DNA of 64,000 nt from Candidatus Fraserbacteria bacterium. Its GTDB lineage: Bacteria > Bipolaricaulota > Bipolaricaulia > RBG-16-55-9 > JANLFV01. Where the stretch lies: positions 27,156-91,155 of the forward strand of contig JBBIJD010000001.1 of NCBI GenBank assembly GCA_037446135.1, in the 5' to 3' direction. Position numbers and translations under genes: made by a program. Each line of letters opens with the position of its first letter. The first letter of the stretch is position 1. The notes beneath the pieces are model-generated. The model saw nothing but the letters and a program-made list of their open reading frames with translations, was not told where the DNA came from and made no database searches. Positions 14,946 to 55,023 of the stretch are shown piece after piece.

Positions 14946-15503
14946 ATGGAGATCAATCTGCCGAACCAGCTTACCCTGCTCCGGATCGCCATCATCCCCA
15001 TCTTGATGGTCTTCATCCTCATTCCTCCGGCCTGGGGGAAGATCGTGGCGATCTTCATCTTCGCCATCGCGGCCCTCTCCGATGCCGTCGACGGCTACAT
15101 CGCCCGGAACTGGCGCCAGGTGACGGACTTCGGGAAGTTCGCCGACCCCATCGCGGACAAGCTCTTGATCGCCTCCGCCTTAATCTGCTTCCTCCAGCTC
15201 GGGGAGTTCGGGAGCTGGGGGGCGGCGATCGTCATGACGATCCTCGCCCGGGAGTTCCTCGTCACCGGGTTGAGGATCTTGGCCGTCTCCCAAGACTTAG
15301 TGATCCGGGCCTCCACCTTGGGGAAGCTCAAGACCCTCGCCCAGATCGGGCTGGTCTTCGTCATTTTAGGGAAGAGCTACTTCGACTGGGGCGAGGCCGG
15401 AGAGATCGCAAAAGCGCTGTTTATCGGGCTGGCGCTTTTCTTGGCCCTCGTCTCTGGGGCCGACTATTTCTATCGCAGCCGGAGGCTCTTCCGTCGGCTC
15501 TAG
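14946..15503 (+). CDS. pgsA: CDP-diacylglycerol--glycerol-3-phosphate 3-phosphatidyltransferase
   Basis: Start at MEINLPNQLTLLRIAI. CDP-alcohol phosphotransferase motif DAVDGYIARNW...G...DPIADK. The N-terminal extension in the ORF track is low-complexity and antisense to the asparaginase gene. Confidence 0.9.
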   Translation: MEINLPNQLTLLRIAIIPILMVFILIPPAWGKIVAIFIFAIAALSDAVDGYIARNWRQVTDFGKFADPIADKLLIASALICFLQLGEFGSWGAAIVMTILAREFLVTGLRILAVSQDLVIRASTLGKLKTLAQIGLVFVILGKSYFDWGEAGEIAKALFIGLALFLALVSGADYFYRSRRLFRRL

Positions 15504-18280
15504 CCCCGGACGGAAATGGTCCTAGTCGCTGAGCTGGTATAGCCATCGTTATCGGTGACAGTCAGTGTCACGGGGTAGTCCCCGGCCTTGGGGAAGACCC
15601 ACTTGACGACCTTCCCCTCGGCGTCGGTGGCCTTATCTCCGGTGAAGTCCCATTCATACCTCACGATGTAGCCATCGGGATCGAATGAGGGCGAGCCGTC
15701 GAAGGTCACCTCCTCTCCGGCCTTCGGCTCCGCTGGGGCATAGGTGAAGTCCGCAAAGGGTGGCTGGAAGGTGACGACGATCGGGCGGGGCCGCTCGGCC
15801 GCCCCGAACTCCACTCGGAGGACCTCCCCAGGCTGGAGGAAAAGCTCGAGCCTCGTCGGGGTCGTCGGCTCATAGCGGGCCGGGAGGGTCGCAGGATCGA
15901 GGGAGAGGGAATACCTCCCGGGCAAGAGGGCGGTGAAGACGAACTCGCCCTGCGAGTCAGTGTAGGTGTCCACCAACTCGGCATCGCTCAGGATCAGTCT
16001 TACCCTCGGAAGGCCGGGCTCGCCTTCCTCTCGCCGGCCGTCCCGATTGAGGTCCTTGAAGACCACTCCCAAGATCGCCGCGGCCCTCGCTAGAGGGATG
16101 TCGAGCTTGAGGACCTCTCCCGCCTCCAGTTCGAGCTCGATCGGGAGGGCCACGGCCGGGGCCAGCTCAGCCGGGACCCGGCGGATCGTGAGGAGATACC
16201 TTCCGGGCCAGAGCGGCGGGAAGCGGTAGAACCCGGTCTTCTCCCCGTCGGAGCGGACTGTCACTTCACCGATCTGGAGGAAGACTCCGCTCACACCCGG
16301 CTCGCCGGGATCACGGGCCGAATTGCCGTCCTCATCGATGAAGATGTAGCCCTCGACCCGGGCCTTAGTGAGGATGAACGGGAGGGGGAGGTTGAACCTC
16401 AGGAGGCCTTCCAGGGCCACTCCTAGCTCCGCGGCCCCACTTACTATCGGGAGCGAGGCCCTCGTCTCGATCGCCCCTTCCCAGGCCTGGGACTCGACCG
16501 CCAGCCAGAGGGCGAGCTCGAGTCCCTCCTCGCTCCAGGCCCCGCGCAAGGCCGCGGCCAGGGCCCCCACCCGCAAGGTGAGCCCCGTCTCCAAGCCGAA
16601 GGAGGTGTCAGTGACCATCCCAGAGATGAGGTCATCGGTGAGAGCCTCGCTGAGCCGGAGGGAGAGGAGGGCCCCTCCCCCCGGCCTCAGGCTGAGCAGT
16701 TGCTCATACTGGGAGTATTGATAATCCGTCCCGGTGACGCGATCGCTCTCCCTGGTAGTGCTGGCAGTGAAAGCCAGTGTCGCCTGGCCGATGGGCTGGC
16801 TGAGGCTGGAATAGGCCGTCCTTTCCACCCGATTGACCTCGGGGGAGAGGCCCTCGCTGAACTGCTCCTCGAATTCGGCCCGGAGGCGGAGCGTGGGGAG
16901 CTCCCGCCCGAATGTATGGTAGCCGCTGAAGGAGCTGCGGATGGTGGTGATCCCCGAGACCGTCGGCCTCTGACTCAGGTTCTCCTCGCTTAAGCCAAGT
17001 GAGAGGGTGAGCAAAGGGAGGCTCGGGGAAGAGGTCCGGTAGGCCAGCTCACCGCTGACCCGATCCCCGAGGGTCGGGCCGCGGAGGGCCAGACCGAGCC
17101 GGAGGAGCGAGTCGCCGAAGTAGAACCCCAGGTGGCTGCTGAGAGCCCCGTCAATCCCCTCGGCTGTGCCACTTGCCTCCGCGGTGAGGGTGAGATCCAG
17201 GGCCCCGGCCTGGGCGATGGTGAGCCGGAGGTCATGCCGCTCCGGCGGGCCGGGATAATCCAGAAGATCGAGCTCGAGCCGCTTCAGTCCTGCCTCCGGA
17301 AGGCCGAGGTAGTTGAGCCGCAAGCTGTCGGCGGCCCGCTCGAGGAAGAAGGAGTCCCTAGCGGTGCCCCAGCCGAACAGGAGCCCCGGCTCGAGCCCCG
17401 CGAAGAGGTCGGCGAGATGGAGTTCGAGCCGGAGGGAGCTCTCTTTGCTGATCCGCCCACCGGCGAAGAGGTCGAGTGAGAGGGCCCGCTCTTCAGTGAG
17501 CAGGGGGCTCTCGAGCCGGAACTCGAGCGTCGCCGGTAGCTCGGCGTAGAGTGCCCCGCCGACCGCTTGGGGCGGTGGCGGGAGGAGGCTGATCCAGGCC
17601 GTGGCCTCGGCCTTCACCTCCGGCTTAGTGAGTGAGCTGGCCTTGAGTGTGACCCTGAGCCTCCCTATCGTGGCGGTCGGGAGGACCGTGGCGAGGACCC
17701 CGGCCCTCCGGGCCTCCCCGGGGAGGAGGTCGAGCTGGCCCTCCTCCAGCTCGGCGACGATCTCCGGTGAGCTGGTGACCTCCAGCTTGAAGGAGTCGGG
17801 GAGATTCCCGCGGTTGAGGACCACAAACTCCAGTCGGACCCGCGTGCCGGGATCGGCCTGGACCTCCGGCGGAGGGAAGACCTCGACCGCTGCTTGAGGG
17901 AGGACGATGATGATCGCAGTCGCAGAGGCAGTGATCGAGGGACTGCTCTCGGCTGTGGCCTTAAGCTGGAGGAGGTTCTCGCCCGCCTCGGCCTGAGCGG
18001 TCACGAAGACGGTGATGAAGAGTGCTTGCTCCTCATCGGTTTCCAGCTCGACCGCCGTGGGCGGGGAGACGGGCTCAAGCCCAGGAGAGGGGGAAAGCTC
18101 GAGGAGGAAGCGGTCCGCCGCGCCGCGGTTCCGGATGGAGAAGACATGGGTGACGAATTCCCCTGGTAGGGCCTGCTTCGGCGGGGAGACAGCTTCGAGC
18201 TCCACCTGGGCGAACGCGGCCGCCTGATAGAGCAGGAATAGTGATAAGATGAGGATCAGCCGGCGCATCGCGGGTCGCAC
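15500..18280 (-). CDS. Large secreted/cell-surface multi-domain protein: DUF11/CARDB-like N-terminal repeats, central beta-rich region, two Cna-B/SdrD-B-type Ig-like domains and C-terminal PKD domain
   Basis: 926 aa. Signal peptide MRRLILILSLFLLYQAAAFAQ. C-terminal PKD signature (VTFDGSPSFDPDGYIVRYEWDFGD...YPVTLTVTDNDG). Two carboxypeptidase-regulatory/SdrD-B-like repeats (YIFIDEDGNSARDPGEPGVSGV...; VFKDLNRDGRREEGEPGLPRVRL...). Middle ~350 aa has alternating hydrophobic periodicity compatible with a beta-barrel or beta-sandwich array. Confidence 0.75.
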   Translation of the reverse strand: MRPAMRRLILILSLFLLYQAAAFAQVELEAVSPPKQALPGEFVTHVFSIRNRGAADRFLLELSPSPGLEPVSPPTAVELETDEEQALFITVFVTAQAEAGENLLQLKATAESSPSITASATAIIIVLPQAAVEVFPPPEVQADPGTRVRLEFVVLNRGNLPDSFKLEVTSSPEIVAELEEGQLDLLPGEARRAGVLATVLPTATIGRLRVTLKASSLTKPEVKAEATAWISLLPPPPQAVGGALYAELPATLEFRLESPLLTEERALSLDLFAGGRISKESSLRLELHLADLFAGLEPGLLFGWGTARDSFFLERAADSLRLNYLGLPEAGLKRLELDLLDYPGPPERHDLRLTIAQAGALDLTLTAEASGTAEGIDGALSSHLGFYFGDSLLRLGLALRGPTLGDRVSGELAYRTSSPSLPLLTLSLGLSEENLSQRPTVSGITTIRSSFSGYHTFGRELPTLRLRAEFEEQFSEGLSPEVNRVERTAYSSLSQPIGQATLAFTASTTRESDRVTGTDYQYSQYEQLLSLRPGGGALLSLRLSEALTDDLISGMVTDTSFGLETGLTLRVGALAAALRGAWSEEGLELALWLAVESQAWEGAIETRASLPIVSGAAELGVALEGLLRFNLPLPFILTKARVEGYIFIDEDGNSARDPGEPGVSGVFLQIGEVTVRSDGEKTGFYRFPPLWPGRYLLTIRRVPAELAPAVALPIELELEAGEVLKLDIPLARAAAILGVVFKDLNRDGRREEGEPGLPRVRLILSDAELVDTYTDSQGEFVFTALLPGRYSLSLDPATLPARYEPTTPTRLELFLQPGEVLRVEFGAAERPRPIVVTFQPPFADFTYAPAEPKAGEEVTFDGSPSFDPDGYIVRYEWDFTGDKATDAEGKVVKWVFPKAGDYPVTLTVTDNDGYTSSATRTISVRG

Positions 18281-18357: not shown

Positions 18358-19371
18358 CTAGCCCCGGGACAGGAGTCCCCGGAGGAGGGCCACATCCTCG
18401 CCGTCGGCATCCCCGTCGTTATCGAAATCGAAGGCCGGCCAATTGTTCTGGACCCCAGCGGTGGTGAGGTTCGCCTCCAGGAGGTCCGGGTCAGCGGCGG
18501 TAAAGGCCCCATCGCCGTCCACATCCTCGTAGAAGCCGTCCCCATCGAGGTCCTGTGGCGGATTCGCCGCTCCTCCGATCGGGATGAGCTTGAGCTCAGG
18601 GACATCGAAAATGAGCTGCCCCGCGGGGAGATAATCGGGACTCCCGAAGTCGAGGACCGCCAGGGCATAGTATCGGCCCGGTGCGGGGCGAGGTGAGGAG
18701 CCCCGAGCTCGGGCCTCCCGGACCGCCCCGGGGAGGATCGGGAACTGGGCCACCTCGATCCGCTCCACTAGTTCGCCCCGAGCATCTAGGACTTGGACCT
18801 CCCCGCTCACCCGGAGGTGGATATCCCCGGTGTTCTCGAAGCCGATGAGGAAAGTGAGCGGGTTGAGCCCGAGCCGCTGGACCCCGGTGATCCGGCCGGC
18901 TCTCGTGCCGGTCCAAGGTGGGGTCTCATAGACCTTGATCCCGAACCGGGGGACCACCATTACCGTCGTCCCGCCCCGCTCTTGCGGCCGGGGCCGCCCC
19001 TCGACCATGATCATCCCCCAATAGGTCCCCTGGACATCGGGCGGGACAGTGATGGTGAACCGGACCTCGCGGGCCTCATCGGGCTTAAGGGAGAAGCTCG
19101 TGGGGGTCACGGTGATCCAGGCGGTATTCGAGCGAGGGAGGCTCCCCGGCTCATAGAAGCGGTGATTCCCCTCGACATCCCGGTCCCAGTCGACGAGGTA
19201 GACCTTGATGTCGTCGGTGATCTGTTCATCGTTGTGGACGAGGAAGGAGAAGGTCCCGCTCCCACCGGCCGGGACCTGGAGGTCGAACTCGATCTGGGAG
19301 ACCTCCAGGGCTGAGGAGGTCAGGAGCACCGCCGCAAGGGTCAAGAGGAGAATAAAGCTCTTCCTCAGCAT
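18358..19371 (-). CDS. Secreted protein with an N-terminal Ig-like domain resembling pilus-chaperone (PapD-like)/DUF916-type domains and a C-terminal dockerin-like Ca-binding repeat pair
   Basis: 337 aa. Signal peptide MLRKSFILLLTLAAVLLTSSA. LEVSQIEFDLQVPAGGSGTFSFLVHNDEQITDDIKVYLVDW parallels the chaperone pattern (RIxY...KSVSLTVxN...PYLVQSW). The C-terminus has two dockerin-type repeats: DLDGDGFYEDVDGDG...DPDLLEANL and DFDNDGDADGEDVALLRGLL. Confidence 0.6.
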   Translation of the reverse strand: MLRKSFILLLTLAAVLLTSSALEVSQIEFDLQVPAGGSGTFSFLVHNDEQITDDIKVYLVDWDRDVEGNHRFYEPGSLPRSNTAWITVTPTSFSLKPDEAREVRFTITVPPDVQGTYWGMIMVEGRPRPQERGGTTVMVVPRFGIKVYETPPWTGTRAGRITGVQRLGLNPLTFLIGFENTGDIHLRVSGEVQVLDARGELVERIEVAQFPILPGAVREARARGSSPRPAPGRYYALAVLDFGSPDYLPAGQLIFDVPELKLIPIGGAANPPQDLDGDGFYEDVDGDGAFTAADPDLLEANLTTAGVQNNWPAFDFDNDGDADGEDVALLRGLLSRG

Positions 19372-19436: not shown

Positions 19437-19958
19437 CTAGGCGCTCGTCAGGGTGTAGACGATCTGGAGGGTATAGCTCCCCGGTGGGTCCTCTTCCCAG
19501 GCGAGGAGGACCCTGAAATGGGTATTCACGAGGATATTATTCCCTCTATTCCCCGCGGCCACCTGGACTTCGTTGATGGTCATCCCGGTATAGTCGGGCT
19601 GGGTCGCGGTCACTCGCGGGTCGGTGGAGGAGGACTTCCACTCCAGATCTTCACAGGGCTTATTCGGGTCCGGCCAAGTCCCAGTGTAAGTCCAAGTCGG
19701 GGCTGTGGCCCAGACATTGACCTGCCAGTTGACATTGCTCCTGACTTTGAGCGTCTGGGCGGGAGAGATCTCCTTATAGCCCCTCTCGTAGTCGTCTGCC
19801 GTCAGGTCCCCGAAGTCGACGAGATTGGGGTCCACCGTCAAGCGGAGAGCCGCTAGCGCGGTCGCTTGAACAGTCGTATTTTGGCTTGTCTGGGCCAAGC
19901 CCGCAAGGCCGAGGAGCAGAACCAAACCTGCTGCCAGAAGCCATCTCAATCTTGCCAT
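19437..19958 (-). CDS. Small secreted beta-rich protein, paralog A of a three-member family (pilin/SCPU-like or WxL-like C-terminal strand)
   Basis: 173 aa. Signal peptide MARLRWLLAAGLVLLLGLAGLAQT. Thr/Ser/Asn-rich. C-terminus PGSYTLQIVYTLTSA matches paralogs B (PGDYSITLEYTATSL) and C (PGDYHVTLTYTITTD). Confidence 0.8.
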   Translation of the reverse strand: MARLRWLLAAGLVLLLGLAGLAQTSQNTTVQATALAALRLTVDPNLVDFGDLTADDYERGYKEISPAQTLKVRSNVNWQVNVWATAPTWTYTGTWPDPNKPCEDLEWKSSSTDPRVTATQPDYTGMTINEVQVAAGNRGNNILVNTHFRVLLAWEEDPPGSYTLQIVYTLTSA

Positions 19959-19984: not shown

Positions 19985-20060
19985 GTGGCTTCGGCAGCCT
20001 GGCAGTCCGTGGAGGACCCACGGCTTTGCGCCCCCATGTCGCCATGGGTTCGCCTTTTCG
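19985..20060 (-). promoter_or_regulatory. GEMM-like (c-di-GMP-I class) riboswitch motif in the 5' UTR of paralog A
   Basis: RNA sense: AAGGCGAACCC-[CCCAUG GCGA CAUGGG]-GGCGCAAAGCC-[CCGUGG guccu CCACGG]...GGCUGCCGAAGCC. Shows the GEMM hallmarks GGCAAACC and GGRCGCAAAGCY around a P1 hairpin with a GNRA tetraloop, then P2. The same architecture occurs twice upstream of paralog C with compensatory changes in the P1 stem. Confidence 0.7.
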
Positions 20061-20075
20061 GTCCACTTAAACAAT

Positions 20076-20137: not shown

Positions 20138-20190
20138 TGACACCCATAAAATAAAGAGAGGCCCCGGGCTCGAGTCATGAGCCCGGGGCC
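20138..20190 (-). terminator. Rho-independent terminator after paralog B (perfect 10-bp GC stem plus T-tract on the minus strand)
   Basis: GGCCCCGGGC...GCCCGGGGCC stem at 20160-20190. On the minus strand it is followed by CTCTCTTTATTTTATGGG. Sits 20 nt after the stop of 20212..20754. Confidence 0.75.
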
Positions 20191-20211
20191 CCGAAATGAG
20201 CGACTAACCGG

Positions 20212-20754
20212 TTACAGAGAGGTTGCGGTGTATTCCAGGGTGATGCTGTAATCTCCGGGGATGTCCTGTTCGTCCGAGGTATACTTGTAGGCCATATGGA
20301 AGTAGGCCGCGCCCGGCTTCTCCCCGGTCCCGGCCTTCATCATCTGATTGAATCCCGGGAAGCTGACATAGCTCCCCTGGTAGCCGCTGACATTCCCCTC
20401 GACTTTGGCGACCTTCCAGGCGAAGTCAGCGAGGATGTCCCCTTCAAAGCCCGGAGGGGTGGTAGCCTCGACGGCCTGGACGGCCAGGACATAGCCGTTA
20501 TGGCAGTTGGTCCTGAGGGAGACGATGTTCCCTTCGGTGTCCTCTAGGATCTGATCCGGCCCGGTGATCGTCCCCAGGAAGACATCCTGGTGGACATTGA
20601 GGGTGATCCAACAGTTGGCATTCCAGTAGACCGTGGTCTTCCCGCCGTCCCCGGCCCCGAGGGAGATCGTCCCCCAGAGGGCCGCGATCGCTAATGCCGC
20701 GAGGGTCGCTACCTTCAGGGTCTTTCCTATTCTCTTCATCGGTGTTACCTCCAT
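20212..20754 (-). CDS. Small secreted beta-rich protein, paralog B
   Basis: 180 aa. Signal peptide (MKRIGKTLKVATLAALAIAALWG). C-terminal PGDYSITLEYTATSL. No riboswitch upstream; instead an 11-bp-periodic TGGAAr repeat array. Confidence 0.8.
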   Translation of the reverse strand: MEVTPMKRIGKTLKVATLAALAIAALWGTISLGAGDGGKTTVYWNANCWITLNVHQDVFLGTITGPDQILEDTEGNIVSLRTNCHNGYVLAVQAVEATTPPGFEGDILADFAWKVAKVEGNVSGYQGSYVSFPGFNQMMKAGTGEKPGAAYFHMAYKYTSDEQDIPGDYSITLEYTATSL

Positions 20755-20895: not shown

Positions 20896-22158
20896 TTAGG
20901 GCTTCTTAGCAGGGAGGGCCCTGGCCCCTCCGAGCCGCTTTGCCCGGTAGAGGGCCCGGTCGGCCTGCTCGATCAGCTCGTCCGGCGAGGCCCCGTCCTC
21001 GGGGAAGCCGGCCACTCCGGCGCTGAAGCTGGCCCTGAAGGGCTCGGATTGCTCAGGGGCTTGGAACCGCTGCTCATGGAACTCCCCTTGGAGCCTGGTC
21101 AGGGCCGCCACGGCCCGGGGCTTGATGGTCTCGGGGAGGATGAGGGCGAACTCATCCCCGCCGTAGCGGGCGGGTAGGTCGCTCTTCCGTCCCTTGGACT
21201 TGATGAGCTCGGCCAGGGCCTTCAGGACGGAGTCGCCCATCCGATGGCCATAGCGGTCGTTGATCGCCTTGAACCGGTCGAGGTCGAGGAGGGCCAGGGA
21301 GAAGACCCTTCCATACCTTCTGCTCCGCTCGAGGGTGCAGCGGAGCTTCTCCTGGAAGGCCCGGTGGTTGTAGAGCCCGGTCAGGCCATCGAGGTCCGCC
21401 AGCTCGGTGAGCACCCGGTTCCGCTCGAGCCGGGCGGCGATCCGGGCGATCAGCTCCTCAGGGTAGAACGGCTTAGTGATGTAGTCGTCCGCCCCGGCCT
21501 CCAGGCCCCGGACCTTGGTCGCCACATCGCCCCTCCCGGTGAGGAAGAAGATCGGGAGCTTCTGGAACTCCACCTCCCGGCGGAGGGAGGCGCAGAGCTC
21601 CAGTCCGGTCAGCTTCGGCATCTCGATGTCCAGGAGCAAGAGGTCCGGCTTGAACTCCCTCAGGGTTGAGAGCGCCTCCGTCGGGTCTTGCAAGGCCTTG
21701 GTGGCGAACCCCGCTTGGCGGAGATGCCCCCCGACGAGCTCCAAGAGGTGAGGATCATCATCGACGATCGCGATCCTCAAGCGGTCGCCTCCTCCCTTTG
21801 GCTCTTGCTCAAGCTCGAACTTGAGCCCAAGCGCCGCTTCGGCCCGCTGGAGCTCCTCCTCCAGCTCGCGAAGGAGGGCCCGGAGCCTTCCCAGTTCCGG
21901 GGCGGCCAGCGGCCTGTTCTGAAGCTGGAGGGCCTCTTCCATCTCCTGAGCCAGCTCGGAGAGCCGAGGGTAGCCGTAGGAGCCGCCGCTCCCCTTGAGC
22001 CGATGGGCCCGCTCCAAGAGGGCCGCCATGGGGGCTTCAGCCTGAGGATCGGCCTCGAGGTCATTGAGCAACTGTCCGAAGAGGTTGAGGGCCCCGCGGA
22101 CCTCCTCGAGGTAGAGCCTTCGCAAGCCCTCCAATCCTTCTTCCATAGGTTCCACCAT
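20896..22158 (-). CDS. Hpt-REC-GGDEF signalling protein (diguanylate cyclase with receiver and N-terminal histidine phosphotransfer domain)
   Basis: 420 aa. Hpt HxxKG motif (ERAHRLKGSGGSYG). REC (IAIVDDDP...LLLDIEMP...DDYITKPF). GGDEF with intact active site RYGGDEF and a putative I-site (RRYGRV...). Confidence 0.9.
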   Translation of the reverse strand: MVEPMEEGLEGLRRLYLEEVRGALNLFGQLLNDLEADPQAEAPMAALLERAHRLKGSGGSYGYPRLSELAQEMEEALQLQNRPLAAPELGRLRALLRELEEELQRAEAALGLKFELEQEPKGGGDRLRIAIVDDDPHLLELVGGHLRQAGFATKALQDPTEALSTLREFKPDLLLLDIEMPKLTGLELCASLRREVEFQKLPIFFLTGRGDVATKVRGLEAGADDYITKPFYPEELIARIAARLERNRVLTELADLDGLTGLYNHRAFQEKLRCTLERSRRYGRVFSLALLDLDRFKAINDRYGHRMGDSVLKALAELIKSKGRKSDLPARYGGDEFALILPETIKPRAVAALTRLQGEFHEQRFQAPEQSEPFRASFSAGVAGFPEDGASPDELIEQADRALYRAKRLGGARALPAKKP

Positions 22159-22227: not shown

Positions 22228-22905
22228 CTACCCCGCCAACTTATACCCGAACCCGCGGACGGTGAGGATCAGTTCGGGGTTCTGCGGGTCCCGCTCGATC
22301 CGCTTGCGGAGGAGGTAAATGTATTTTTGCACATCGCCGGGGCGGGCGAAGCTGCTCCCCGGCCAGAGATGGTCGATGATCTCCCGATCGGAGAAGACCC
22401 TCCCCCGCTCTGAAGCTAAGAGGAGCAGGAGCTCATACTCCTTGGGGGAGAGGCTCACCACCTCTCCTCGGACCTGGACGGTCTTGCTCTTATCGTCGAT
22501 GGTGAGCGGCCCGACCTCAATGAGCGCCTCTTTCGGGGCCGCCCCGGCCCGCCGGAGGACCGCCTCGATCCGGAGGGCCACCTCCATGAGGTCGAACGGC
22601 TTCCTGATATAGTCGTCGGCCCCGAGGGTGAACCCCTGGATCGTATCTATCGGCGAGTCCCGGGCGGTGAGCATCAGCACTGGGGTGGAGCTGCCTTCCC
22701 GGATCCGCCGGAGCACCTCCCAGCCATCCATCCCCGGGAGCATCACATCGAGGAGGACCAGGTCCGGCCGCTCCTTAGCGAAGGCCTCCAGGGCCTTTGG
22801 GCCGTCCTCGGCGGTGAGGACCTCATACCCGCGGGAGCTGAGGAAGGCTCGGAGGAGCCTCAAGATATCAGGGTCGTCATCGACGAGGAGGATCTTCTTA
22901 GCCAT
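22228..22905 (-). CDS. OmpR-family response regulator (REC + winged-helix)
   Basis: 225 aa. KILLVDDDP...LVLLDVMLPGMDGW...DDYIRKPF, plus trans_reg_C (LSPKEYELLLLLASERGRVFSDREIIDHLW...TVRGFGYKLA). About 60% identity by eye to the second RR at 39014. Confidence 0.95.
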   Translation of the reverse strand: MAKKILLVDDDPDILRLLRAFLSSRGYEVLTAEDGPKALEAFAKERPDLVLLDVMLPGMDGWEVLRRIREGSSTPVLMLTARDSPIDTIQGFTLGADDYIRKPFDLMEVALRIEAVLRRAGAAPKEALIEVGPLTIDDKSKTVQVRGEVVSLSPKEYELLLLLASERGRVFSDREIIDHLWPGSSFARPGDVQKYIYLLRKRIERDPQNPELILTVRGFGYKLAG

Positions 22906-25075
22906 CCTGATCAGTCAGTCCTCCGTCCAGCCCGAGCTTGAGCCAGCTCTTGGAGAGCGGGAGCCTGACGGTGAACTTCGTCCCCGCATTCGGCTTGCTC
23001 TCGACCCTGATCTCCCCGCCGTGACGGTCGATCGTGGCCTTGACGATCGCCAGCCCCAGGCCGGTCCCCGTGGCCTCCCGGACATAGGGGTTGGTGGAGC
23101 GGAAGAACCTGGTGAAGAGCCGGCCGAGCTCCTCCGCGTCCATCCCGATCCCGGTATCCGTGACCTCGACGATCGCCTCCCCGGCCACGGTGTCGGCCCG
23201 GGCCCGGAGGCTCACCTTCCCCTCCTTGGTGTATTTGATGGCATTGGAGAGGAGGTTGGCGAAGGCCCGAGCGAGGTAGTCGGCATCACCTTTGACCTGG
23301 AGCCCTTCCTCCAGCTCGACCTCCAGGGCCAATCCCTTCTCCCGGGCATTGACGGCGAAAGTGGCGGCCACATCCCTCAAGATTTCGTCGAGCGCGAGGT
23401 CCCTTAGCTCGATCTTCCGCTCCCCCGACTCGAGCCGCTCGATGTCCAGGAGGTCGTTGACCAGTTTGGTCAGGCGGTCGGCGTTCCGGGAGATAACCTG
23501 GAGGAACTCCTCCTGGGCCGGATTGAGGGGGCCGGTCTCCCCGGCCAAGAGGAGGTCGGCATACCCTTTGATCGAGGTGAGCGGGGTCCGAAGCTCATGG
23601 GAGACGGTGGCGAGGAACTCGGCCTTCAGTTGCTCCAGTCGCTTCTGAGCGGTGATATCCCGCATCATCCCTTGATAGCCCACCAGCCGCCCCGCGCTGT
23701 CCTTGATGGCCACACTGATCTCGTGGACCGTCCTCATTGAGCCGTCCTTGTGCTTATACGCTAGTTCCATGTCTACATAGCCGTCCCGCGCCAGTCGCCG
23801 GTGGAACTCCTCCCGCTGGGCCGGGTCGGCATAATTCTCGCAGAGGTCCATCCGGATCAGCTCCTCTTCCCTGTAGCCGAGAAGCTTCCTCACCGCCGGG
23901 TTGACATCGACGAGTCGGCCTTGAGAATCGCAGACATAGATCACATCGGCGCTATTCTCGAAGAGGTTGCGGTAGCGCTCCCCTGAGCGGCGGAGTTCCT
24001 CCTCAGCTTGCTCGCGTCTAGCAAGCATCTCATTGATCGAGCGAGCCAGGCTCGCCAGCTCATCGCCCCCTTTGGAGGGGAGGCGGGCCGAGAGGTCGCC
24101 GCTCGCCGTGACCCGGCGGACAGCCCGCTCGAGTCGGGCCAGCTTAGCCAGGACACCCCTCTCGAGCAGGAGGAGGGCGGTGGCCGTGAAGACCAGGCCG
24201 ATGGTAGAGAGGGCCAACATGAAGTAGTTCAAGCTCGCCAGCCCTTGGCTGTAGATGGTCCGCGGGAGGTCCACCCTCAAGATGAGGGCCGGCTGGCCGT
24301 AGATATCTCGGAGCAGGGCATAGCCGGCGACCCGCTCCCGGTCGAGCCGCTGGACAGGGAGCGTCGTCGCCCCTGTCCCCGCTAAGAGGGCCGTGCGGGC
24401 CGCGGCGAAGGCCGGGTCTTCTAGGGCTAGTCCTGGCTCATCAACTCGCCGGAATGCTAGTGAGAGGTCCGTCAACTCCGCCAGTTGAGCGACCTTAGCA
24501 GCATCGAGGTAGCGGCCCATGATGAGCGAGCCCCGGCTCGGGCCGGTCTTCTCGCTGGTGAGGATCGGCCTGGCGGCCAAGAGGAGTGGCCCCTCCGCTA
24601 GAAGGAGGAGCCCAGTCAGCCCCTCTTTGGGAGGCTCCTCGCGGGGCCGGAGGAGCGGGCTCTCAGGGGTGAGACTGTTCAAGAGGCCCTCTGGGACTGG
24701 CACCTCCCTTCTCTCCTGGAGGTCGAAGGCCTTGGCGAAGACGATCCTCCCCGAGGAGTGGACGAAGACCATCAAGTTCAAGCCGAGCTCGCTGAAGGTC
24801 TGATCGACGAGGTTGGAGCGGATATACTCCGGATTGGCGTCCTCGATGAAGGCATAGGTATCGTCCCAACCGGCCCAATCGCCGACGAGGGCGCTCAGCT
24901 TGGCCTGGTCATCGGCTAGCGCGTTCAGGGTTCGCTCGACCTCCCTTCGGGTGGCCTGCTCTTCCAGGGCCAGGAAGCCCCCGAGGAAGAGCGACCGGAG
25001 GACGAGATACATGATGGCTACTGAGCAGAGGAGCACTGAGCCGATAGTGATCAGCGTCTTCTTCCGTAGGGTCAT
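22898..25075 (-). CDS. Sensor histidine kinase with extracytoplasmic sensor domain, HAMP, PAS, HisKA and HATPase_c
   Basis: 725 aa. N-terminal TM segment, ~270-aa periplasmic region, a second TM, HAMP-like linker, PAS (DVIYVCDSQGRLVDVNPAV), H-box (ATVSHELRTPLTSI), and N/G boxes (LSNAIKYT, DTGIGM, GTGLGLAIV). Confidence 0.9.
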   Translation of the reverse strand: MTLRKKTLITIGSVLLCSVAIMYLVLRSLFLGGFLALEEQATRREVERTLNALADDQAKLSALVGDWAGWDDTYAFIEDANPEYIRSNLVDQTFSELGLNLMVFVHSSGRIVFAKAFDLQERREVPVPEGLLNSLTPESPLLRPREEPPKEGLTGLLLLAEGPLLLAARPILTSEKTGPSRGSLIMGRYLDAAKVAQLAELTDLSLAFRRVDEPGLALEDPAFAAARTALLAGTGATTLPVQRLDRERVAGYALLRDIYGQPALILRVDLPRTIYSQGLASLNYFMLALSTIGLVFTATALLLLERGVLAKLARLERAVRRVTASGDLSARLPSKGGDELASLARSINEMLARREQAEEELRRSGERYRNLFENSADVIYVCDSQGRLVDVNPAVRKLLGYREEELIRMDLCENYADPAQREEFHRRLARDGYVDMELAYKHKDGSMRTVHEISVAIKDSAGRLVGYQGMMRDITAQKRLEQLKAEFLATVSHELRTPLTSIKGYADLLLAGETGPLNPAQEEFLQVISRNADRLTKLVNDLLDIERLESGERKIELRDLALDEILRDVAATFAVNAREKGLALEVELEEGLQVKGDADYLARAFANLLSNAIKYTKEGKVSLRARADTVAGEAIVEVTDTGIGMDAEELGRLFTRFFRSTNPYVREATGTGLGLAIVKATIDRHGGEIRVESKPNAGTKFTVRLPLSKSWLKLGLDGGLTDQDG

Positions 25076-25187
25076 CTATCTGCTTCTGGCCTCTCGGCCT
25101 GTATCGAGAAGGAATAATAAACCAATAAAGCCGGCCATTCAAGGCCGGCTATCCAACTCTGCTCTTACTCCTGGGCAAGCAGGGCTC

Positions 25188-25709
25188 TCAATCGGTGGTG
25201 ATGGTGTAGGTCAGGGTCACATGGTAGTCTCCCGGCCTATGATGCTCGCGGTCGAAGAGGATGAGGTAGTCCACCTCCACCTTTTGGCGCCCGCTCGGGC
25301 CATGAGCGATGACCTGATCGGAGTTGCTGACCGGGCGATAGGACTCGCTCCCCACGCGGAGCTGGAAGTCGCTGAGCGGCTTGGTGTAGCGGCCGTCATA
25401 GCTCCTTCCGAGGTCGGGCTCGGCGGCCCGGACCGCCAGCCTCCAGTGGACATTGCTGGCGGCGATGAGGGTGAGCGCCCTAGGGATCTCGCGGTAGCCC
25501 CGCTCCAGGTCCGCTTCGCTCGGCTGAGGGAGCACAAATGTCGTCGTGACGGCCTGGTCGGTCTGGCCCTCGAGTGAGAGGCGGGCGAAAGGGAGGACAG
25601 TCCAAGAGATCGTCGTCCTAGCGGAGTCACCTGTCCCTAGAGCCTGGGCACTGAGGAATAACGAGAGACCGAGAAGAAGCAAGCCGGAGATGACCGCTCT
25701 TCTTGCCAT
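25188..25709 (-). CDS. Small secreted beta-rich protein, paralog C
   Basis: 173 aa. Signal peptide MARRAVISGLLLLGLSLFLSAQA. C-terminal PGDYHVTLTYTITTD. Preceded by tandem GEMM-like riboswitch motifs. Confidence 0.8.
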   Translation of the reverse strand: MARRAVISGLLLLGLSLFLSAQALGTGDSARTTISWTVLPFARLSLEGQTDQAVTTTFVLPQPSEADLERGYREIPRALTLIAASNVHWRLAVRAAEPDLGRSYDGRYTKPLSDFQLRVGSESYRPVSNSDQVIAHGPSGRQKVEVDYLILFDREHHRPGDYHVTLTYTITTD

Positions 25710-25710
25710 C

Positions 25711-25790
25711 CTTCGGCAGCCCGGCGATCCCCGAGGGACCCGTAGCTTTGCGCCCCCACCTTGCGATGGGTTTGCCCTTATCGGGATGCG
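25711..25790 (-). promoter_or_regulatory. GEMM-like (c-di-GMP-I class) riboswitch motif, gene-proximal copy of a tandem pair
   Basis: RNA sense: AAGGGCAAACCC-[AUC GCAA GGU]-GGGGGCGCAAAGCUACGGG...GGGCUGCCGAAGG-AUG. The P1 stem CCCAUC/GGUGGG differs from the other copies (CCCGCC/GGCGGG and CCCAUG/CAUGGG) by compensatory changes, and all three loops are GNRA-type (GCAA, GAGA, GCGA). Confidence 0.7.
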
Positions 25791-25801
25791 TCCCTTCCTC
25801 G

Positions 25802-25905
25802 CCCTTCGGCAGCCCGGCTGCCCTTCACCTCCTTCCCCAATCAGCCAGTGTTAGGGCCCGTGGCTTTGCGCCCCCGCCTCTCGGCGGGTTTGCCCTTATC
25901 GGAGC
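25802..25905 (-). promoter_or_regulatory. GEMM-like (c-di-GMP-I class) riboswitch motif, distal copy of the tandem pair
   Basis: RNA sense: CCGAUAAGGGCAAACCC-[GCC GAGA GGC]-GGGGGCGCAAAGCCACGGGCCC...GGGCAGCCGGGCUGCCGAAGGG. Lies immediately downstream of the promoter at 25916-25945. Confidence 0.7.
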
Positions 25906-25915
25906 TCAGCGAAGG

Positions 25916-25945
25916 TATTATACACCGAGTGAGCGGGCTTGACAA
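25916..25945 (-). promoter_or_regulatory. Near-consensus sigma70 promoter (minus strand TTGTCA-17 nt-TATAAT) for the tandem riboswitch-paralog C transcript
   Basis: Minus-strand reading: ggcTTGTCAagcccgctcactcggtgTATAATacc. Overlaps the 3' end of the HD-GYP gene. Confidence 0.6.
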
Positions 25946-27702: not shown

Positions 27703-28371
27703 TTAAGGGCTGGGACTGGGACAAGGGACGAAGCAGGCCGCCCCGCCGAAGCTCACCATCCCGCCGATCGAGATCTCGAGGGCCGAGAGGGCCCCATTCC
27801 CGTCACAGACGCCGTCGTAAGCCCCGTCCCCGTCGACATCGAGCCAGCAGAGCGAGTTCGGCATCACCTCATACTTCAGCTCGGCGAAGATCGAGAACGG
27901 CCCGGTGGTGACCCGGAAGCCCGCCAGCTCATGGAGAGAGAGGAGCATCCCCGGACCGTAGGGGTTCCCCAGAGCGGTGAATGCCTCATAGGGGAAGGTG
28001 CCGATTCCTCCGCCGAGATAGAATCTTGCCATCCCCCGGTTGAGGAAGAGCAAGAGGCTGCTCTCGACGGAGGTGAGGTCGGCCCGGAGTAGGGCCGCGC
28101 TCAAGTAGAAGGCCACTCCCAGCCTAGCGGCCAGATCGAGGGTCAGCGGAGCCTCGGCGTAGAGGTGGATGAAAGTGAGGGCCGTAGTGAGCGTGAGTGG
28201 CGGCATGGTGATCAGCGGGAGAGAGAGGGCCAGCCCGAAGGCCGGAGAGGGGGCCGACGGGGGGGTCGCGGGCTGAGTCTGGGCCAACCCCACAAGGCTG
28301 CCGACCAGTAAAAGGACCAGCACCAGGAGCGCAGTTAAAGCCAGCTTCATCTTCTTGAACCTCCCTTCCAA
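27703..28371 (-). CDS. Secreted hypothetical protein with Ca-binding DxDxDG-type motif
   Basis: 222 aa in the track. The true start may be the internal Met of MKLALTALLVLVLLLVGSLVGLAQT (signal peptide). DVDGDGAYDGVCDGNG near the C-terminus is a thrombospondin-3/dockerin-like calcium loop. Confidence 0.5.
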   Translation of the reverse strand: MEGRFKKMKLALTALLVLVLLLVGSLVGLAQTQPATPPSAPSPAFGLALSLPLITMPPLTLTTALTFIHLYAEAPLTLDLAARLGVAFYLSAALLRADLTSVESSLLLFLNRGMARFYLGGGIGTFPYEAFTALGNPYGPGMLLSLHELAGFRVTTGPFSIFAELKYEVMPNSLCWLDVDGDGAYDGVCDGNGALSALEISIGGMVSFGGAACFVPCPSPSP

Positions 28372-54138: not shown

Positions 54139-54399
54139 CCTCCCTCTCTGTTAGCTTTCCACTAGCAATAGCCTCAAAACCGCGTCAGCCAAGAAGATCG
54201 GCCCGCTCAACTGTCGCTCTGATAGCCGGCTCTCGACTACCCTAAGCGGCGCGGGCTTGCCATGGCGAGATGATAGCATAGCAGTAGCTAAAAAGGCAAG
54301 AGCTGGACTCATGGCTCTCTCGGGCTCTCGTGGCAGTTAATCTGGGCCATCGGGAACTGCCGACCAATGAGCGTGGACGATTCTAAGCATCACACAAGT

Positions 54400-54960: not shown

Positions 54961-55023
54961 GTTTTGCCGCCCAACGGCTGTCAGCTCCAGCCGCAGGTTG
55001 GGCGGCCCAACGGAATGACACCT

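What the first reader, a model, noticed from the sequence alone, without database searches (positions are those of the whole stretch)
18358..19371. Secreted protein combining a chaperone-like Ig domain with a dockerin-type double Ca-binding repeat
After the signal peptide, the N-terminal region (LEVSQIEFDLQVPAGGSGTFSFLVHNDEQITDDIKVYLVDW) follows the residue pattern of PapD-like pilus chaperone N-domains (and of DUF916 domains in Gram-positive WxL loci). The last ~65 residues contain two dockerin-like segments (DLDGDGFYEDVDGDG...DLLEANL and DFDNDGDADGEDVALLRGLL). A chaperone-like module tethered through a dockerin is not a described arrangement. It may anchor the small subunits to a cohesin-like site on the adjacent 926-aa protein.
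Basis: partly seen in the sequence, partly recalled or inferred. Interest (0 to 1): 0.7.

Follow-up and report, generated by a model that had tools for sequence, protein, structure and literature searches.

The report
Dockerin-tethered pilus chaperone, usher-like cluster
This gene encodes a secreted two-domain protein shaped like a pilus-assembly chaperone with a calcium-binding dockerin tail, and it sits between pilin-like subunit genes and an usher-like outer-membrane pore gene, pointing to an undescribed, c-di-GMP-controlled pilus system in the deep-branching phylum Bipolaricaulota.

Summary
It has a Sec signal peptide, two Ig-like domains and a C-terminal dockerin. The dockerin passes the Pfam cut-off (24.0 bits against 22.9) and occurs in 53 of 60 homologues. 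The AlphaFold2 model (pLDDT 95) matches Enterococcus WxLIP best (E 8e-12), then FimC, Caf1M and CsuC pilus chaperones (E about 1e-9). At sequence level it falls below both the PapD and DUF916 cut-offs.

No cohesin was found, so the dockerin's partner is unknown. However, every usher-like cluster has a dockerin protein next to it.

Verdict: a new variant of the chaperone-usher kind, with a dockerin-tethered chaperone. All evidence is computational.

The parts
18358..19371 (-). Gene for the 337-aa chaperone-like protein with a dockerin: signal peptide, two Ig-like domains, linker, dockerin.
   Evidence: ORF and translation. Ninety homologue clusters, almost all from Candidatus Bipolaricaulota/Acetothermia. 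AF2 model pLDDT 95.2.
19309..19371 (-). Sec signal peptide (aa 1-21, cleavage after SSA).
   Evidence: Read directly from the sequence. Helix 2-15 in the model.
18925..19308 (-). Ig-like domain 1 (aa 22-149). DUF916/PapD_N-like. It ends in the invariant R142-F-G-I-K146-V-Y strand.
   Evidence: Pfam WxLIP_PGBD weak hit covering 19-119 of 121. Foldseek hits to WxLIP and FimC/Caf1M/CsuC. Invariant residues.
18601..18897 (-). Ig-like domain 2 (aa 159-257). DUF3324/PapD_C-like.
   Evidence: The profile hit to EfmWxLIP1 spans both domains. Model strands 159-257.
18370..18558 (-). Type-I dockerin-like module (aa 272-334) with two canonical Ca loops and an extra upstream PQDLDGDGxYED motif.
   Evidence: Pfam above the gathering cut-off. 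PDB dockerin hits. Column conservation.
15500..18280 (-). Usher-like outer-membrane protein (926 aa from GTG; NCBI aa from the ATG at 18268). It has a signal peptide, 2 N-terminal Ig-like domains, a beta-barrel, 2 SdrD_B-type sandwiches and a PKD domain.
16337..17548 (-). Barrel-forming middle region (aa about 245-648, about 21-23 long beta strands, with a low-confidence insert at aa 295-352).
   Evidence: Secondary structure of the model. No Pfam or PDB sequence hit. Only 22 relatives among 1.84 billion representatives.
19437..19958 (-). Small secreted pilin-like subunit (173 aa), first gene of the subunit-chaperone-usher-like operon.
   Evidence: Family HMM. The profile hits TLP-1a/b donor-strand-exchange pilins at E 1e-3.
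19989..20063 (-). c-di-GMP-I-GGC riboswitch aptamer in the leader of the 173-aa subunit/chaperone/usher-like operon.
   Evidence: Rfam RF03167, 61 bits against gathering score 59. The same arrangement occurs in 9 of 9 related loci.
20158..20192 (-). Strong intrinsic terminator (14-bp stem plus T-run) after the 180-aa subunit gene.
20212..20754 (-). Second pilin-like subunit paralogue (180 aa).
   Evidence: Family HMM E 5e-39.
20896..22158 (-). Hpt-REC-GGDEF diguanylate cyclase.
   Evidence: Pfam and NCBIfam.
22228..22905 (-). OmpR-type response regulator.
   Evidence: Pfam.
22898..25075 (-). CHASE4-HAMP-PAS histidine kinase.
   Evidence: Pfam.
25188..25709 (-). Third pilin-like subunit paralogue (173 aa), with its own promoter-like site (25917-25945) and terminator (25129-25150).
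   Evidence: Family HMM E 3e-37. Promoter and terminator scan.
25711..25903 (-). Two tandem c-di-GMP-I-GGC riboswitch aptamers (25711-25785 and 25804-25903) in the leader of the third subunit gene.
   Evidence: Rfam, 74 and 76 bits.
25918..27471 (-). PAS-GAF-HD-GYP protein (putative c-di-GMP phosphodiesterase) bordering the cluster.
   Evidence: Pfam HD_5 E 3.5e-42.

Best explanation
The gene encodes the chaperone of a highly divergent chaperone-usher-like pilus system of Candidatus Bipolaricaulota, a diderm phylum with a toga-like outer membrane.

Shown:
- The protein is Sec-exported and has a PapD/WxLIP-type pair of Ig domains followed by a type-I dockerin-like Ca-binding module.
- It lies in a conserved cluster between pilin-like subunit genes and a gene for an outer-membrane beta-barrel protein whose closest whole-chain structural matches are the FimD and PapC ushers.
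- Subunit genes are preceded by c-di-GMP riboswitches. GGDEF, HD-GYP and two-component genes sit in or beside the cluster.

Inferred:
- After export, the Ig pair caps each subunit by beta-strand complementation, as PapD does for pilins and as WxLIP does for WxL proteins.
- It delivers the subunit to the usher-like pore, where subunits polymerise by N-terminal donor-strand exchange, as in the related TLP-1 pili, and leave through the barrel.

More speculative:
- The dockerin replaces the transient chaperone-usher contact of classical systems, and the membrane helix of WxLIP. It would act as a Ca-dependent tether to a non-cohesin beta-sandwich domain of the usher-like protein or of another envelope component.
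- This would keep the chaperone, and in other genomes accessory PKD-, cadherin- or AMIN-dockerin proteins, stationed at the platform.
For: Chaperone-like body:
- AF2 pLDDT 95.
- Foldseek top hits are WxLIP 9i1y/9i25 at E 8e-12, then FimC, Caf1M, CsuC, CfaA, SafB and others at E 1e-9 to 6e-8.
- The profile hits EfmWxLIP1 at E 1e-3 over both domains.
- Sub-threshold PapD_N, StbB and PRK09918 hits.

Dockerin.

Usher-like neighbour:
- The model has about 21-23 long strands between N- and C-terminal sandwich domains.
- FimD 3rfz_B scores E 1.6e-13 over 767 columns; PapC 7lhg_C scores 5.7e-10.

Subunits:
- One family with three paralogues in the window.
- It lies next to the chaperone gene in nearly every locus, and some loci carry 310-aa two-domain versions.
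- The 35-sequence profile hits only TLP-1a/b (E 1.1e-3 and 4.1e-3) across their donor strand. TLP-1 assembles by donor-strand exchange (PMC11494351).

Synteny: subunit(s), then chaperone, then an optional dockerin protein, then the usher-like gene. This holds in the window and in L003, 6, 9, 10, 11, 12, 13, 14, 16, 17, 19, 40, 41 and 42.

Dockerin and cluster:
- The dockerin HMM hits nothing else in the 64-kb window.
- In about 354 kb of related loci it hits only genes beside chaperone-like or usher-like genes.
- The AMIN-dockerin protein in L042 suggests a periplasmic setting.

Regulation:
- Riboswitches, and GGDEF, HK, RR and HD-GYP genes.
- A strong terminator follows a subunit gene, as in classical fimbrial operons.

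Organism: diderm, with pili seen at the toga ends (bioRxiv 10.1101/2025.11.21.689855).
Against: - No member reaches the curated cut-offs of PapD_N, WxLIP_PGBD or Usher.
- TM-scores are modest: 0.35-0.61 for the chaperone and 0.23-0.33 for the usher match.
- No plug domain was identified. The strand number is not fixed, and the model has a low-confidence insert at aa 295-352.
- No structure could be predicted for the subunits. Their link to donor-strand-exchange pilins rests on E about 1e-3.
- No cohesin was found anywhere, so the dockerin's partner is unknown.
- Some homologues are orphans (L001). Others lie next to subunits and GGDEF genes without an usher-like gene within reach (L020, L022 and L023).
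- Dockerin-less chaperones can accompany an usher-like gene (L042), so the tether is not essential to the system.
- Everything is computational.
Confidence: 0.6

Rival explanations
1. A WxLIP-type surface adaptor rather than an assembly chaperone. The Ig pair permanently holds non-polymerising small proteins, and two-domain adhesin versions, on the cell surface, as proposed for WxLIP and WxL proteins on Gram-positive walls. The dockerin anchors this complex to the S-layer or to the 926-aa protein, which would serve as an outer-membrane anchor rather than a secretion pore.
For: - WxLIP is the best structural match and the only sequence-level structural match for the Ig pair.
- WxL clusters have a similar layout: small WxL, WxLIP, large WxL (PMC10599100 and PMC9772566).
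- A dockerin in place of the WxLIP membrane helix looks like an anchor swap.
- The subunit family carries W-x-L and Y-T-L motifs in the same relative positions as the two WxL motifs (comparison with the paper's description).
Against: - The subunit profiles hit no WxL Pfam model and no WxL chain of 9i25. They do hit the polymerising TLP-1 pilins.
- The host is a diderm, so a Sec-exported protein without a further secretion route stays under the outer membrane.
- An usher-like barrel is conserved in the cluster.
Confidence: 0.2
2. The dockerin-like tail has no protein partner. It is a Ca-binding EF-hand-type stability or folding module, or binds a glycan or S-layer component, as assumed for many non-cellulosomal dockerins. 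The protein then acts as a free periplasmic chaperone.
For: - No cohesin was detected in the neighbour or the window.
- EF-hand Pfam models also hit the tail in 29 of 60 members.
- The same dockerin subtype, about 50% identical, occurs on unrelated haloarchaeal and methanogen proteins.
- Dockerin-less homologues exist.
Against: - The tail is the most conserved part of the family, which suggests a specific conserved interaction.
- Dockerin proteins are confined to these clusters in the DNA surveyed.
- Several different proteins (PKD, cadherin-like, AMIN, double dockerin) carry the same module beside the usher-like gene. That pattern resembles a shared docking site.
Confidence: 0.2
3. A cellulosome-like polysaccharide-degrading surface complex. 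The dockerin would recruit the protein to a scaffoldin, and the Ig domains would bind carbohydrate.
For: The best dockerin matches are cellulosomal, namely CelS and CelK. There are weak hits to BACON, fn3_5 and NPCBM_assoc carbohydrate-associated Ig families.
Against: - No glycoside hydrolase, CBM, cohesin or scaffoldin occurs in the cluster or in any of about 25 related loci.
- The conserved partners are pilin-like proteins, an outer-membrane barrel and c-di-GMP signalling elements.
Confidence: 0.03

Closest known systems
PapD-like periplasmic chaperones of chaperone-usher pili (FimC, PapD, Caf1M, CsuC, CfaA)
   Same: - Sec-exported and about 230 aa, with a two-Ig-domain body.
- More than 40 of the top 50 Foldseek hits are such chaperones. 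CsuC gives the highest target-normalised TM-score, 0.61.
- Encoded between pilin-like subunits and an usher-like barrel.
- The last strand of domain 1 carries invariant Arg and Lys and alternating hydrophobic residues (V137, V139, F143, I145, V147). This recalls the G1 donor strand; the comparison is from memory and was not tested.
   Different: - Below all Pfam and NCBIfam cut-offs (best PapD_N E 0.011).
- Carries a C-terminal dockerin that no described chaperone has.
- Found in Bipolaricaulota, outside the phyla where chaperone-usher systems are described, to my knowledge.
WxLIP (DUF916-DUF3324-TM helix) of Gram-positive WxL clusters; structures 9I1Y and 9I25
   Same: - Best structural match (E 8e-12), and the only sequence-profile match among solved structures for the Ig pair (E 1e-3).
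- Same length class, 337-365 aa.
- Same domain order with a C-terminal anchoring element.
- Encoded beside small secreted partner proteins and a large multi-Ig surface protein.
- Binds its partner through a beta strand or hairpin according to PMC10599100.
   Different: - The anchor is a dockerin, not a transmembrane helix.
- The host is a diderm.
- The partners have no detectable WxL domain.
- The large neighbour is a membrane barrel, not a WxL-anchored adhesin.
- The conserved NQIDKxxxYFDLK motif of WxLIP is absent.
Type I dockerins (PF00404) of cellulosomes, and non-cellulosomal dockerins
   Same: - Two tandem 12-residue Ca loops, each followed by a helix.
- Passes the Pfam gathering score.
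- Aligns end to end with the CelS dockerin.
   Different: - No cohesin partner was found.
- Carries an additional conserved PQDLDGDGxYED motif.
- The putative recognition positions 10 and 11 differ between the two repeats (AA versus GE).
- Fused to a chaperone-like body, not to an enzyme.
FimD and PapC outer-membrane ushers (for the 926-aa neighbour)
   Same: - Overall plan: N-terminal soluble domain(s), large beta-barrel, C-terminal beta-sandwich domains.
- Top Foldseek hits over about 770 columns.
- Encoded directly after the chaperone gene.
   Different: - No Usher Pfam hit and 11-13% identity.
- Plug domain not recognised.
- The flanking domains are CARDB/NPCBM-type Ig, SdrD_B and PKD rather than usher NTD and CTD folds.
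- The barrel family is tiny, with 22 representatives in 1.84 billion proteins.
TLP-1a and TLP-1b environmental pili (9IKJ, 9IKK; CryoSeek, PMC11494351), for the small subunits
   Same: - The only PDB matches of the subunit profile (E 1e-3).
- They are collinear motifs: N-terminal donor strand, S-x-V-x-W-x-L, F-R-V, and PG-x-Y-x-L-x-h-x-[FY] at the C-terminus.
- Both are secreted.
   Different: - TLP-1 protomers are about 236 aa, against about 150 aa mature here.
- The match is borderline.
- The organism and assembly genes of TLP-1 are unknown.

Membership tests
PapD-like chaperone (chaperone-usher pathway) | Two Ig-like domains in an L or boomerang arrangement, exported by Sec. | tested here: met
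   AF2 pLDDT 95. Foldseek hits to FimC, Caf1M, CsuC and others at E 1e-9 to 6e-8. Signal peptide.
PapD-like chaperone (chaperone-usher pathway) | Sequence membership in PF00345/PF02753 or the NCBIfam fimbrial chaperone models. | tested here: not met
   No hit for the window protein. PapD_N hits 10 of 60 members, best E 0.011. StbB hits 3 of 60, best 0.006. All are below the cut-offs.
PapD-like chaperone (chaperone-usher pathway) | Conserved basic cleft residues (Arg8 and Lys112 in PapD) and a G1 donor strand with alternating hydrophobic residues. | tested here: inconclusive
   Invariant R142 and near-invariant K146 lie in the last strand of domain 1, with V137, V139, F143, I145 and V147 alternating. 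No residue-level structural superposition was available.
PapD-like chaperone (chaperone-usher pathway) | Encoded with pilin subunits and an outer-membrane usher. | tested here: met
   Met at fold and context level. Synteny holds in about 15 loci. The neighbour's top hits are FimD and PapC. The subunits hit donor-strand-exchange pilins at E 1e-3.
PapD-like chaperone (chaperone-usher pathway) | Binds subunits by donor-strand complementation and is released at the usher. | not testable with these tools
   No complex prediction or experiment was possible.
WxLIP (DUF916-DUF3324-TMH) | PF06030 N-domain followed by a PF11797 domain. | tested here: inconclusive
   PF06030 gives sub-threshold hits in 38 of 60 members (best 4e-4; window protein 11.9 bits against 27.3). 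PF11797 was not among the 25 families listed for the 60 members. The profile hits EfmWxLIP1 at E 1e-3 across both domains, and WxLIP is the top Foldseek hit. A smaller 10-sequence profile lost the hit.
WxLIP (DUF916-DUF3324-TMH) | C-terminal transmembrane helix. | tested here: not met
   The C-terminus is an acidic dockerin with no hydrophobic segment.
WxLIP (DUF916-DUF3324-TMH) | Clustered with at least two WxL-domain proteins. | tested here: not met
   The neighbouring small proteins have no Pfam WxL hit and no match to the WxL chain of 9i25. The motif-level resemblance is noted but unproven.
Type I dockerin (PF00404) | Duplicated segment of about 22 residues, each a Ca-binding loop (D/N at positions 1, 3, 5 and 12) plus a helix, passing the Pfam gathering score. 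| tested here: met
   24.0 bits against 22.9. Present in 53 of 60 members. Loop residues are invariant or nearly so. Helices at 293-300 and 324-336.
Type I dockerin (PF00404) | A cognate cohesin in the same organism or system. | tested here: not met
   There is no cohesin in the 926-aa neighbour by Pfam or by fold. None was found among the neighbours scanned in other loci. The rest of the genome could not be searched.
Type I dockerin (PF00404) | Ca-dependent binding. | not testable with these tools
   Requires an experiment.
Outer-membrane usher (PF00577), for the 926-aa neighbour | Sequence membership in the Usher family. | tested here: not met
   No Usher hit in any of 10 homologues. The middle region has no Pfam or PDB sequence hit.
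Outer-membrane usher (PF00577), for the 926-aa neighbour | Large (24-strand) barrel flanked by periplasmic N- and C-terminal beta-sandwich domains. | tested here: inconclusive
Outer-membrane usher (PF00577), for the 926-aa neighbour | Plug domain inserted in the barrel. | tested here: inconclusive
   The only candidate is the low-confidence insert at aa 295-352. Model coordinates could not be inspected.

The most novel reading that the evidence does not exclude
The Bipolaricaulota cluster is a living intermediate that links two systems so far treated as unrelated: classical chaperone-usher pili of diderms and the WxL surface-protein clusters of Firmicutes. On this reading WxLIP is a chaperone-usher chaperone that gained a membrane anchor after loss of the outer membrane, and the usher was lost with that membrane. 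The Bipolaricaulota form solves the same tethering problem with a dockerin that docks on a non-cohesin beta-sandwich of the usher-like pore. That would be a new kind of dockerin receptor and a chaperone permanently stationed at its usher. The same machinery would also be the missing assembly system of the TLP-1-type pili found by cryo-EM in pond water.
Probability: 0.2. Interest if true: 0.85.

Novelty: new variant of a known kind. Interest (0 to 1): 0.7.

Why it matters
- It would extend chaperone-usher-type pilus assembly to a deep-branching, toga-bearing phylum. The first closed genome of that phylum was reported to have no pili, fimbriae or adhesin genes (PMC6092417). Pili have since been seen on the first isolate (bioRxiv 10.1101/2025.11.21.689855).
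- It shows a new way to couple a chaperone to its platform, through a dockerin. That widens the known uses of dockerins beyond cellulosomes and implies a new, non-cohesin receptor.
- It gives a candidate gene neighbourhood and assembly route for the orphan TLP-1 donor-strand-exchange pili.
- It offers a concrete structural bridge between WxLIP/WxL clusters and chaperone-usher systems, relevant to how envelopes changed when the outer membrane was lost.
- The riboswitch-controlled operon provides a simple and testable regulatory handle.

Tried and rejected
- **Plus-strand reading.** It gives stop codons, so the gene is on the minus strand.
- **Single-sequence PDB search of the protein.** It returned only weak dockerin hits.
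- **The search for related loci with the 60-sequence alignment.** A closer 11-sequence alignment worked.
- **Profile search for homologues of the 926-aa protein.** It was swamped by PKD- and SdrD-sharing candidates and gave only 4 true homologues, which spent the last such search.
- **Structure prediction with locus-derived sequences.** This was solved by searching the middle region against the representative library and using those ids.
- **A 10-sequence, dockerin-free profile of the Ig body.** It did not recover WxLIP. The sequence-level link to WxLIP therefore depends on profile depth.
- **Amphipathicity scan of the barrel region.** Uninformative.
- **Direct test of homology between the subunits and WxL domains.** I could not obtain WxL sequences. 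Pfam and PDB profile searches were negative.
- **Cellulosome reading.** Rejected because no enzymes, CBMs or cohesins occur in any related locus.
- **TasA/SipW-type fibres.** Considered and set aside. No signal-peptidase gene lies in the cluster, and a chaperone-like and a barrel gene are present instead.
- **Literature searches.** Searches for dockerin plus chaperone-usher, and for chaperone-usher in Acetothermia, Bipolaricaulota or Thermotogota, found nothing relevant.
Full report
**1. The observation**

The coordinates delimit a real ORF, but on the minus strand (18358..19371, ATG start, 337 aa). The plus-strand translation is full of stops. The N-terminus is a standard Sec signal peptide (MLRKSFILLLTLAAVLLTSSA|LE).

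The window is about 63% G+C. The protein is 100% identical to a database protein from a 94-kb contig. It has 90 homologue clusters, nearly all from Candidatus Bipolaricaulota/Acetothermia genome bins. Source annotations name these homologues 'P pilus assembly chaperone PapD' (JGI), 'molecular chaperone' or 'dockerin type I domain-containing protein' (NCBI). None names both features together.

**2. The dockerin**

- Pfam Dockerin_1 matches aa 281-331 at E 4.6e-5 and 24.0 bits, above the 22.9 gathering score.
- Fifty-three of 60 aligned family members match it, best E 2.5e-9.
- A family profile hits solved cellulosomal dockerins, for example CelS 2mte at E 4e-6.
- The two loops, DVDGDGAFTAAD and DFDNDGDADGED, have D/N at positions 1, 3, 5 and 12. 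Each is followed by a helix in the AlphaFold2 model, with pLDDT 93-98.
- This tail is the most conserved part of the family. D274, D278, G279, E282, D283, D294, A313, F314, D315, N318, G320 and D326 are among the 16 columns invariant across the 53 carriers.
- A conserved extra motif, PQDLDGDGxYED, precedes the first loop.
- The same subtype, about 50% identical, occurs on unrelated haloarchaeal and methanogen proteins.
- Seven of the 60 homologues lack the tail.

**3. The chaperone-like body**

*Sequence level.* The signal is weak.
- PF06030 (DUF916, now WxLIP_PGBD) scores E 0.24 for this protein, although the match spans profile positions 19-119 of 121.
- It gives sub-threshold hits in 38 of 60 members. 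PapD_N hits 10 of 60, best E 0.011.
- NCBIfam fimbrial-chaperone models hit 4 of 60 members, all sub-threshold.
- The 60-sequence profile hits the crystal-structure sequence of Enterococcus faecium WxLIP1 (9i1y, 9i25) at E 1e-3 over both domains. A 10-sequence profile loses that hit.

*Fold level.* The result is clear.
- The model has mean pLDDT 95.2 and pTM 0.83.
- It shows two beta-sandwich domains (aa 22-149 and 159-257), a linker, and the helical tail.
- Foldseek against the PDB ranks WxLIP first (E 8e-12 to 2e-11).
- After that, more than 40 of the top 50 chains are chaperone-usher chaperones: FimC, Caf1M, CsuC, CfaA, SafB, DraB, FaeE, YadV and CupB2 (E 1e-9 to 6e-8).
- CsuC gives the highest target-normalised TM-score, 0.61.

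WxLIP is proposed to bind WxL proteins by inserting a beta hairpin or strand (PMC10599100). PapD-type chaperones bind pilins by donor-strand complementation, which is established knowledge. Both closest relatives therefore work by beta-strand complementation of a partner encoded next door.

**4. The neighbours**

All relevant genes are on the minus strand. Three small secreted proteins belong to one family with no Pfam match:
- 19437-19958, 173 aa.
- 20212-20754, 180 aa.
- 25188-25709, 173 aa.

The family lies next to the chaperone-like gene in almost every related locus, in 1-4 copies. Some loci have 310-aa versions with an extra N-terminal domain. This mirrors the major, minor and two-domain adhesin subunits of fimbrial operons. 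Members share four features:
- An N-terminal strand after the signal peptide (T-V-x-h-x-h).
- An S-N-x-x-W-x-L motif.
- An F-R-V motif.
- A C-terminal P-G-x-Y-x-h-x-h-x-Y-T-h end.

A 19-sequence profile hit only TLP-1a and TLP-1b in the PDB, at E 0.39 and 0.11. A 35-sequence profile raised this to E 1.1e-3 and 4.1e-3, still the only meaningful hits. The alignment covers TLP-1 residues 6-71. TLP-1a/b are pond-water fibrils of unknown origin. Their cryo-EM structures show assembly by insertion of the N-terminal beta1 strand into another protomer, which is donor-strand exchange (PMC11494351).

**5. The 926-aa neighbour (15500-18280)**

Pfam sees only Ig_VWA7/NPCBM_assoc-type Ig domains at the N-terminus, and two SdrD_B domains plus a PKD domain at the C-terminus. 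There is no cohesin. The middle 400 residues match nothing in Pfam or in PDB sequences. That region has only 22 relatives among 1.84 billion representative proteins.

An AlphaFold2 model built on 22 of these sequences has mean pLDDT 83, and 85-97 across most of the middle. It shows:
- A signal peptide.
- Two Ig-like domains.
- About 21-23 long antiparallel strands (aa 245-648), with one low-confidence insert at aa 295-352.
- Three beta-sandwich domains.

Foldseek's best PDB matches are the FimD usher (3rfz_B, E 1.6e-13, 767 aligned columns, plus six more FimD chains) and the PapC usher (E 5.7e-10). The other matches are multi-Ig arrays and porins. TM-scores are low, 0.23-0.33.

**6. Synteny**

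I used HMMs for the Ig body, the dockerin, the barrel region and the subunit family. The order is subunit(s), then body-dockerin, then an optional further dockerin protein, then the barrel protein. This order, with local rearrangements in L019 and L040, holds in the window and in L003, L006, L009, L010, L011, L012, L013, L014, L016, L017, L019, L040, L041 and L042.

The extra dockerin proteins carry PKD, cadherin-like/Big_9 or AMIN domains, or a second dockerin. All 16 clusters with a barrel gene have at least one adjacent dockerin protein:
- In L042 the chaperone lacks the dockerin, and an AMIN-dockerin protein follows the barrel gene.
- In L036 a dockerin-only protein precedes the barrel gene.

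The dockerin HMM hits nothing else in the 64-kb window. In about 354 kb of related loci it hits nothing outside these clusters. This is circumstantial support for a dockerin receptor within the system. AMIN domains are periplasmic peptidoglycan binders by established knowledge, which points to the periplasmic side.

There are exceptions. L001 holds an orphan chaperone-dockerin gene. L020, L022 and L023 have GGDEF, chaperone-dockerin and subunit genes without a barrel gene in reach. The dockerin-less chaperone of L004 sits beside a 1488-aa cadherin/DUF11 protein.

**7. Regulation**

An Rfam scan at gathering thresholds finds three c-di-GMP-I-GGC aptamers in the window:
- Two in tandem (25711-25785 and 25804-25903) directly upstream of the third subunit gene.
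- One (19989-20063) directly upstream of the 173-aa subunit gene that heads the subunit-chaperone-barrel operon.

Other regulatory features:
- A near-consensus promoter-like site (25917-25945) precedes the tandem pair.
- Strong terminators follow two subunit genes, at 20158-20192 and 25129-25150.
- Hpt-REC-GGDEF, OmpR-type regulator and CHASE4 kinase genes sit between the subunit genes. A PAS-GAF-HD-GYP gene borders the cluster.

In nine of nine related loci scanned, 22 c-di-GMP-I or c-di-GMP-I-GGC aptamers were found, nearly all directly upstream of subunit genes. The cluster therefore behaves as one c-di-GMP-controlled unit, as expected for adhesive or biofilm fibres.

**8. Host biology**

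The first Bipolaricaulota isolate is Gram-negative, with a toga-like outer membrane, an S-layer and a few pili at the toga ends (bioRxiv 10.1101/2025.11.21.689855). An earlier genome study of Acetothermia Ran1 found no pili, fimbriae or adhesin genes (PMC6092417). A Sec-exported chaperone-like protein would be periplasmic unless it were secreted further.

**9. Interpretation**

*Most likely (about 0.6).* This is the chaperone of a very divergent chaperone-usher-like pilus system. The fold, the context and the regulation are shown. Strand complementation of subunits, donor-strand exchange and passage through the barrel are inferred from relatives.

*Dockerin function (about 0.35 for the specific partner).* The dockerin may act as a Ca-dependent tether to the usher-like protein. 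This is inferred only from co-occurrence and conservation. No cohesin exists in the neighbour, so any receptor would be of a new kind.

*Rivals.*
- A WxLIP-like permanent surface adaptor (0.2).
- A partnerless Ca-binding tail, which can be true together with the main model (0.2).
- A cellulosome-like complex (0.03).

**10. Comparison with known systems, and novelty**

The protein works like a PapD-type chaperone or WxLIP, but it fails the sequence definitions of both. It lacks the WxLIP membrane helix and WxL partners. The dockerin passes its family definition except for the missing cohesin. The neighbour resembles an usher in architecture but fails the family's sequence definition.

No paper in the searched library joins a dockerin to a chaperone-usher chaperone, or reports such systems in this phylum. 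I rate it a new variant of a known kind, with interest 0.7.

The most novel reading not excluded (probability about 0.2) has three parts. The cluster would bridge chaperone-usher pili and Gram-positive WxL clusters. It would reveal a non-cohesin dockerin receptor. It would also be the assembly system of TLP-1-type pili.

Noticed in passing
window 19989-20063, 25711-25785 and 25804-25903 (minus strand); also L003, L006, L009, L014, L016, L017, L040, L041 and L042: c-di-GMP-I / c-di-GMP-I-GGC riboswitch aptamers lie directly upstream of the small-subunit genes. They are single or in tandem. There are three in the window and 22 in nine related loci. In L042, aptamers also precede a DUF4900 gene and a DUF7305 gene.
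   Followed up: partly
window 25188-25709 (minus strand): A third paralogue of the small pilin-like subunits lies 5 kb upstream of the others. It has its own strong promoter-like site, tandem riboswitches and terminator.
   Followed up: yes
window 27703-28371 (minus strand): A 222-aa secreted protein with no Pfam family. It is hydrophobic and strand-rich, contains a DVDGDGAYDGVCDGNG Ca-loop-like motif, and has a Cys- and Pro-rich C-terminus. It may be a small outer-membrane or envelope protein.
   Followed up: no
L042 9325-10743; L009 5994-7520; L012 11044-12210; L013 11092-12480; L015 2268-3710; L024, L025 and L027: The same dockerin subtype sits on other proteins encoded beside the usher-like gene. 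These are AMIN+dockerin, PKD+dockerin, Big_9/cadherin+dockerin and double-dockerin proteins. This suggests a shared docking site in the system.
   Followed up: partly
L026, L028-L031, L033-L035, L037 and L038: Haloarchaeal and Methanoregulaceae proteins of 300-2300 aa carry a dockerin module about 50% identical to this one, including the PQDLDGDGxYED lead-in. The rest of each protein is unrelated.
   Followed up: no
L004 8001-8786 and 9350-13816: A dockerin-less chaperone homologue follows three subunit genes. After it come a small RHH protein and a 1488-aa DUF11/cadherin/DUF7507 surface protein instead of an usher-like barrel. This is a different variant of the cluster.
   Followed up: partly
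L020 15307-16746, L022 8058-9497 and L023 15409-17085: In the GGDEF, chaperone-dockerin, subunit variant of the cluster, a subtilase (Peptidase_S8) carries an N-terminal region that matches the chaperone-body HMM.
   Followed up: partly
window 54001-56000: G+C drops locally to 0.57, with GC skew -0.21. There is an ORF-poor gap at 54139-55023, and the gene at 55024-55704 has low GC3 (0.67). This may be foreign or non-coding DNA. Rfam at gathering thresholds found no RNA there.
   Followed up: no
window 51313-51398 (minus strand): ARAGORN calls a tRNA with a 4-base anticodon inside the ORF 50726-52189. Rfam does not confirm it, so it is probably a false positive.
   Followed up: partly
P0103 (1412 aa): This protein matches the first part (aa 14-139 of the query) of the barrel-region query in 10 separate stretches. 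Part of that region may occur elsewhere as a tandem repeat.
   Followed up: no
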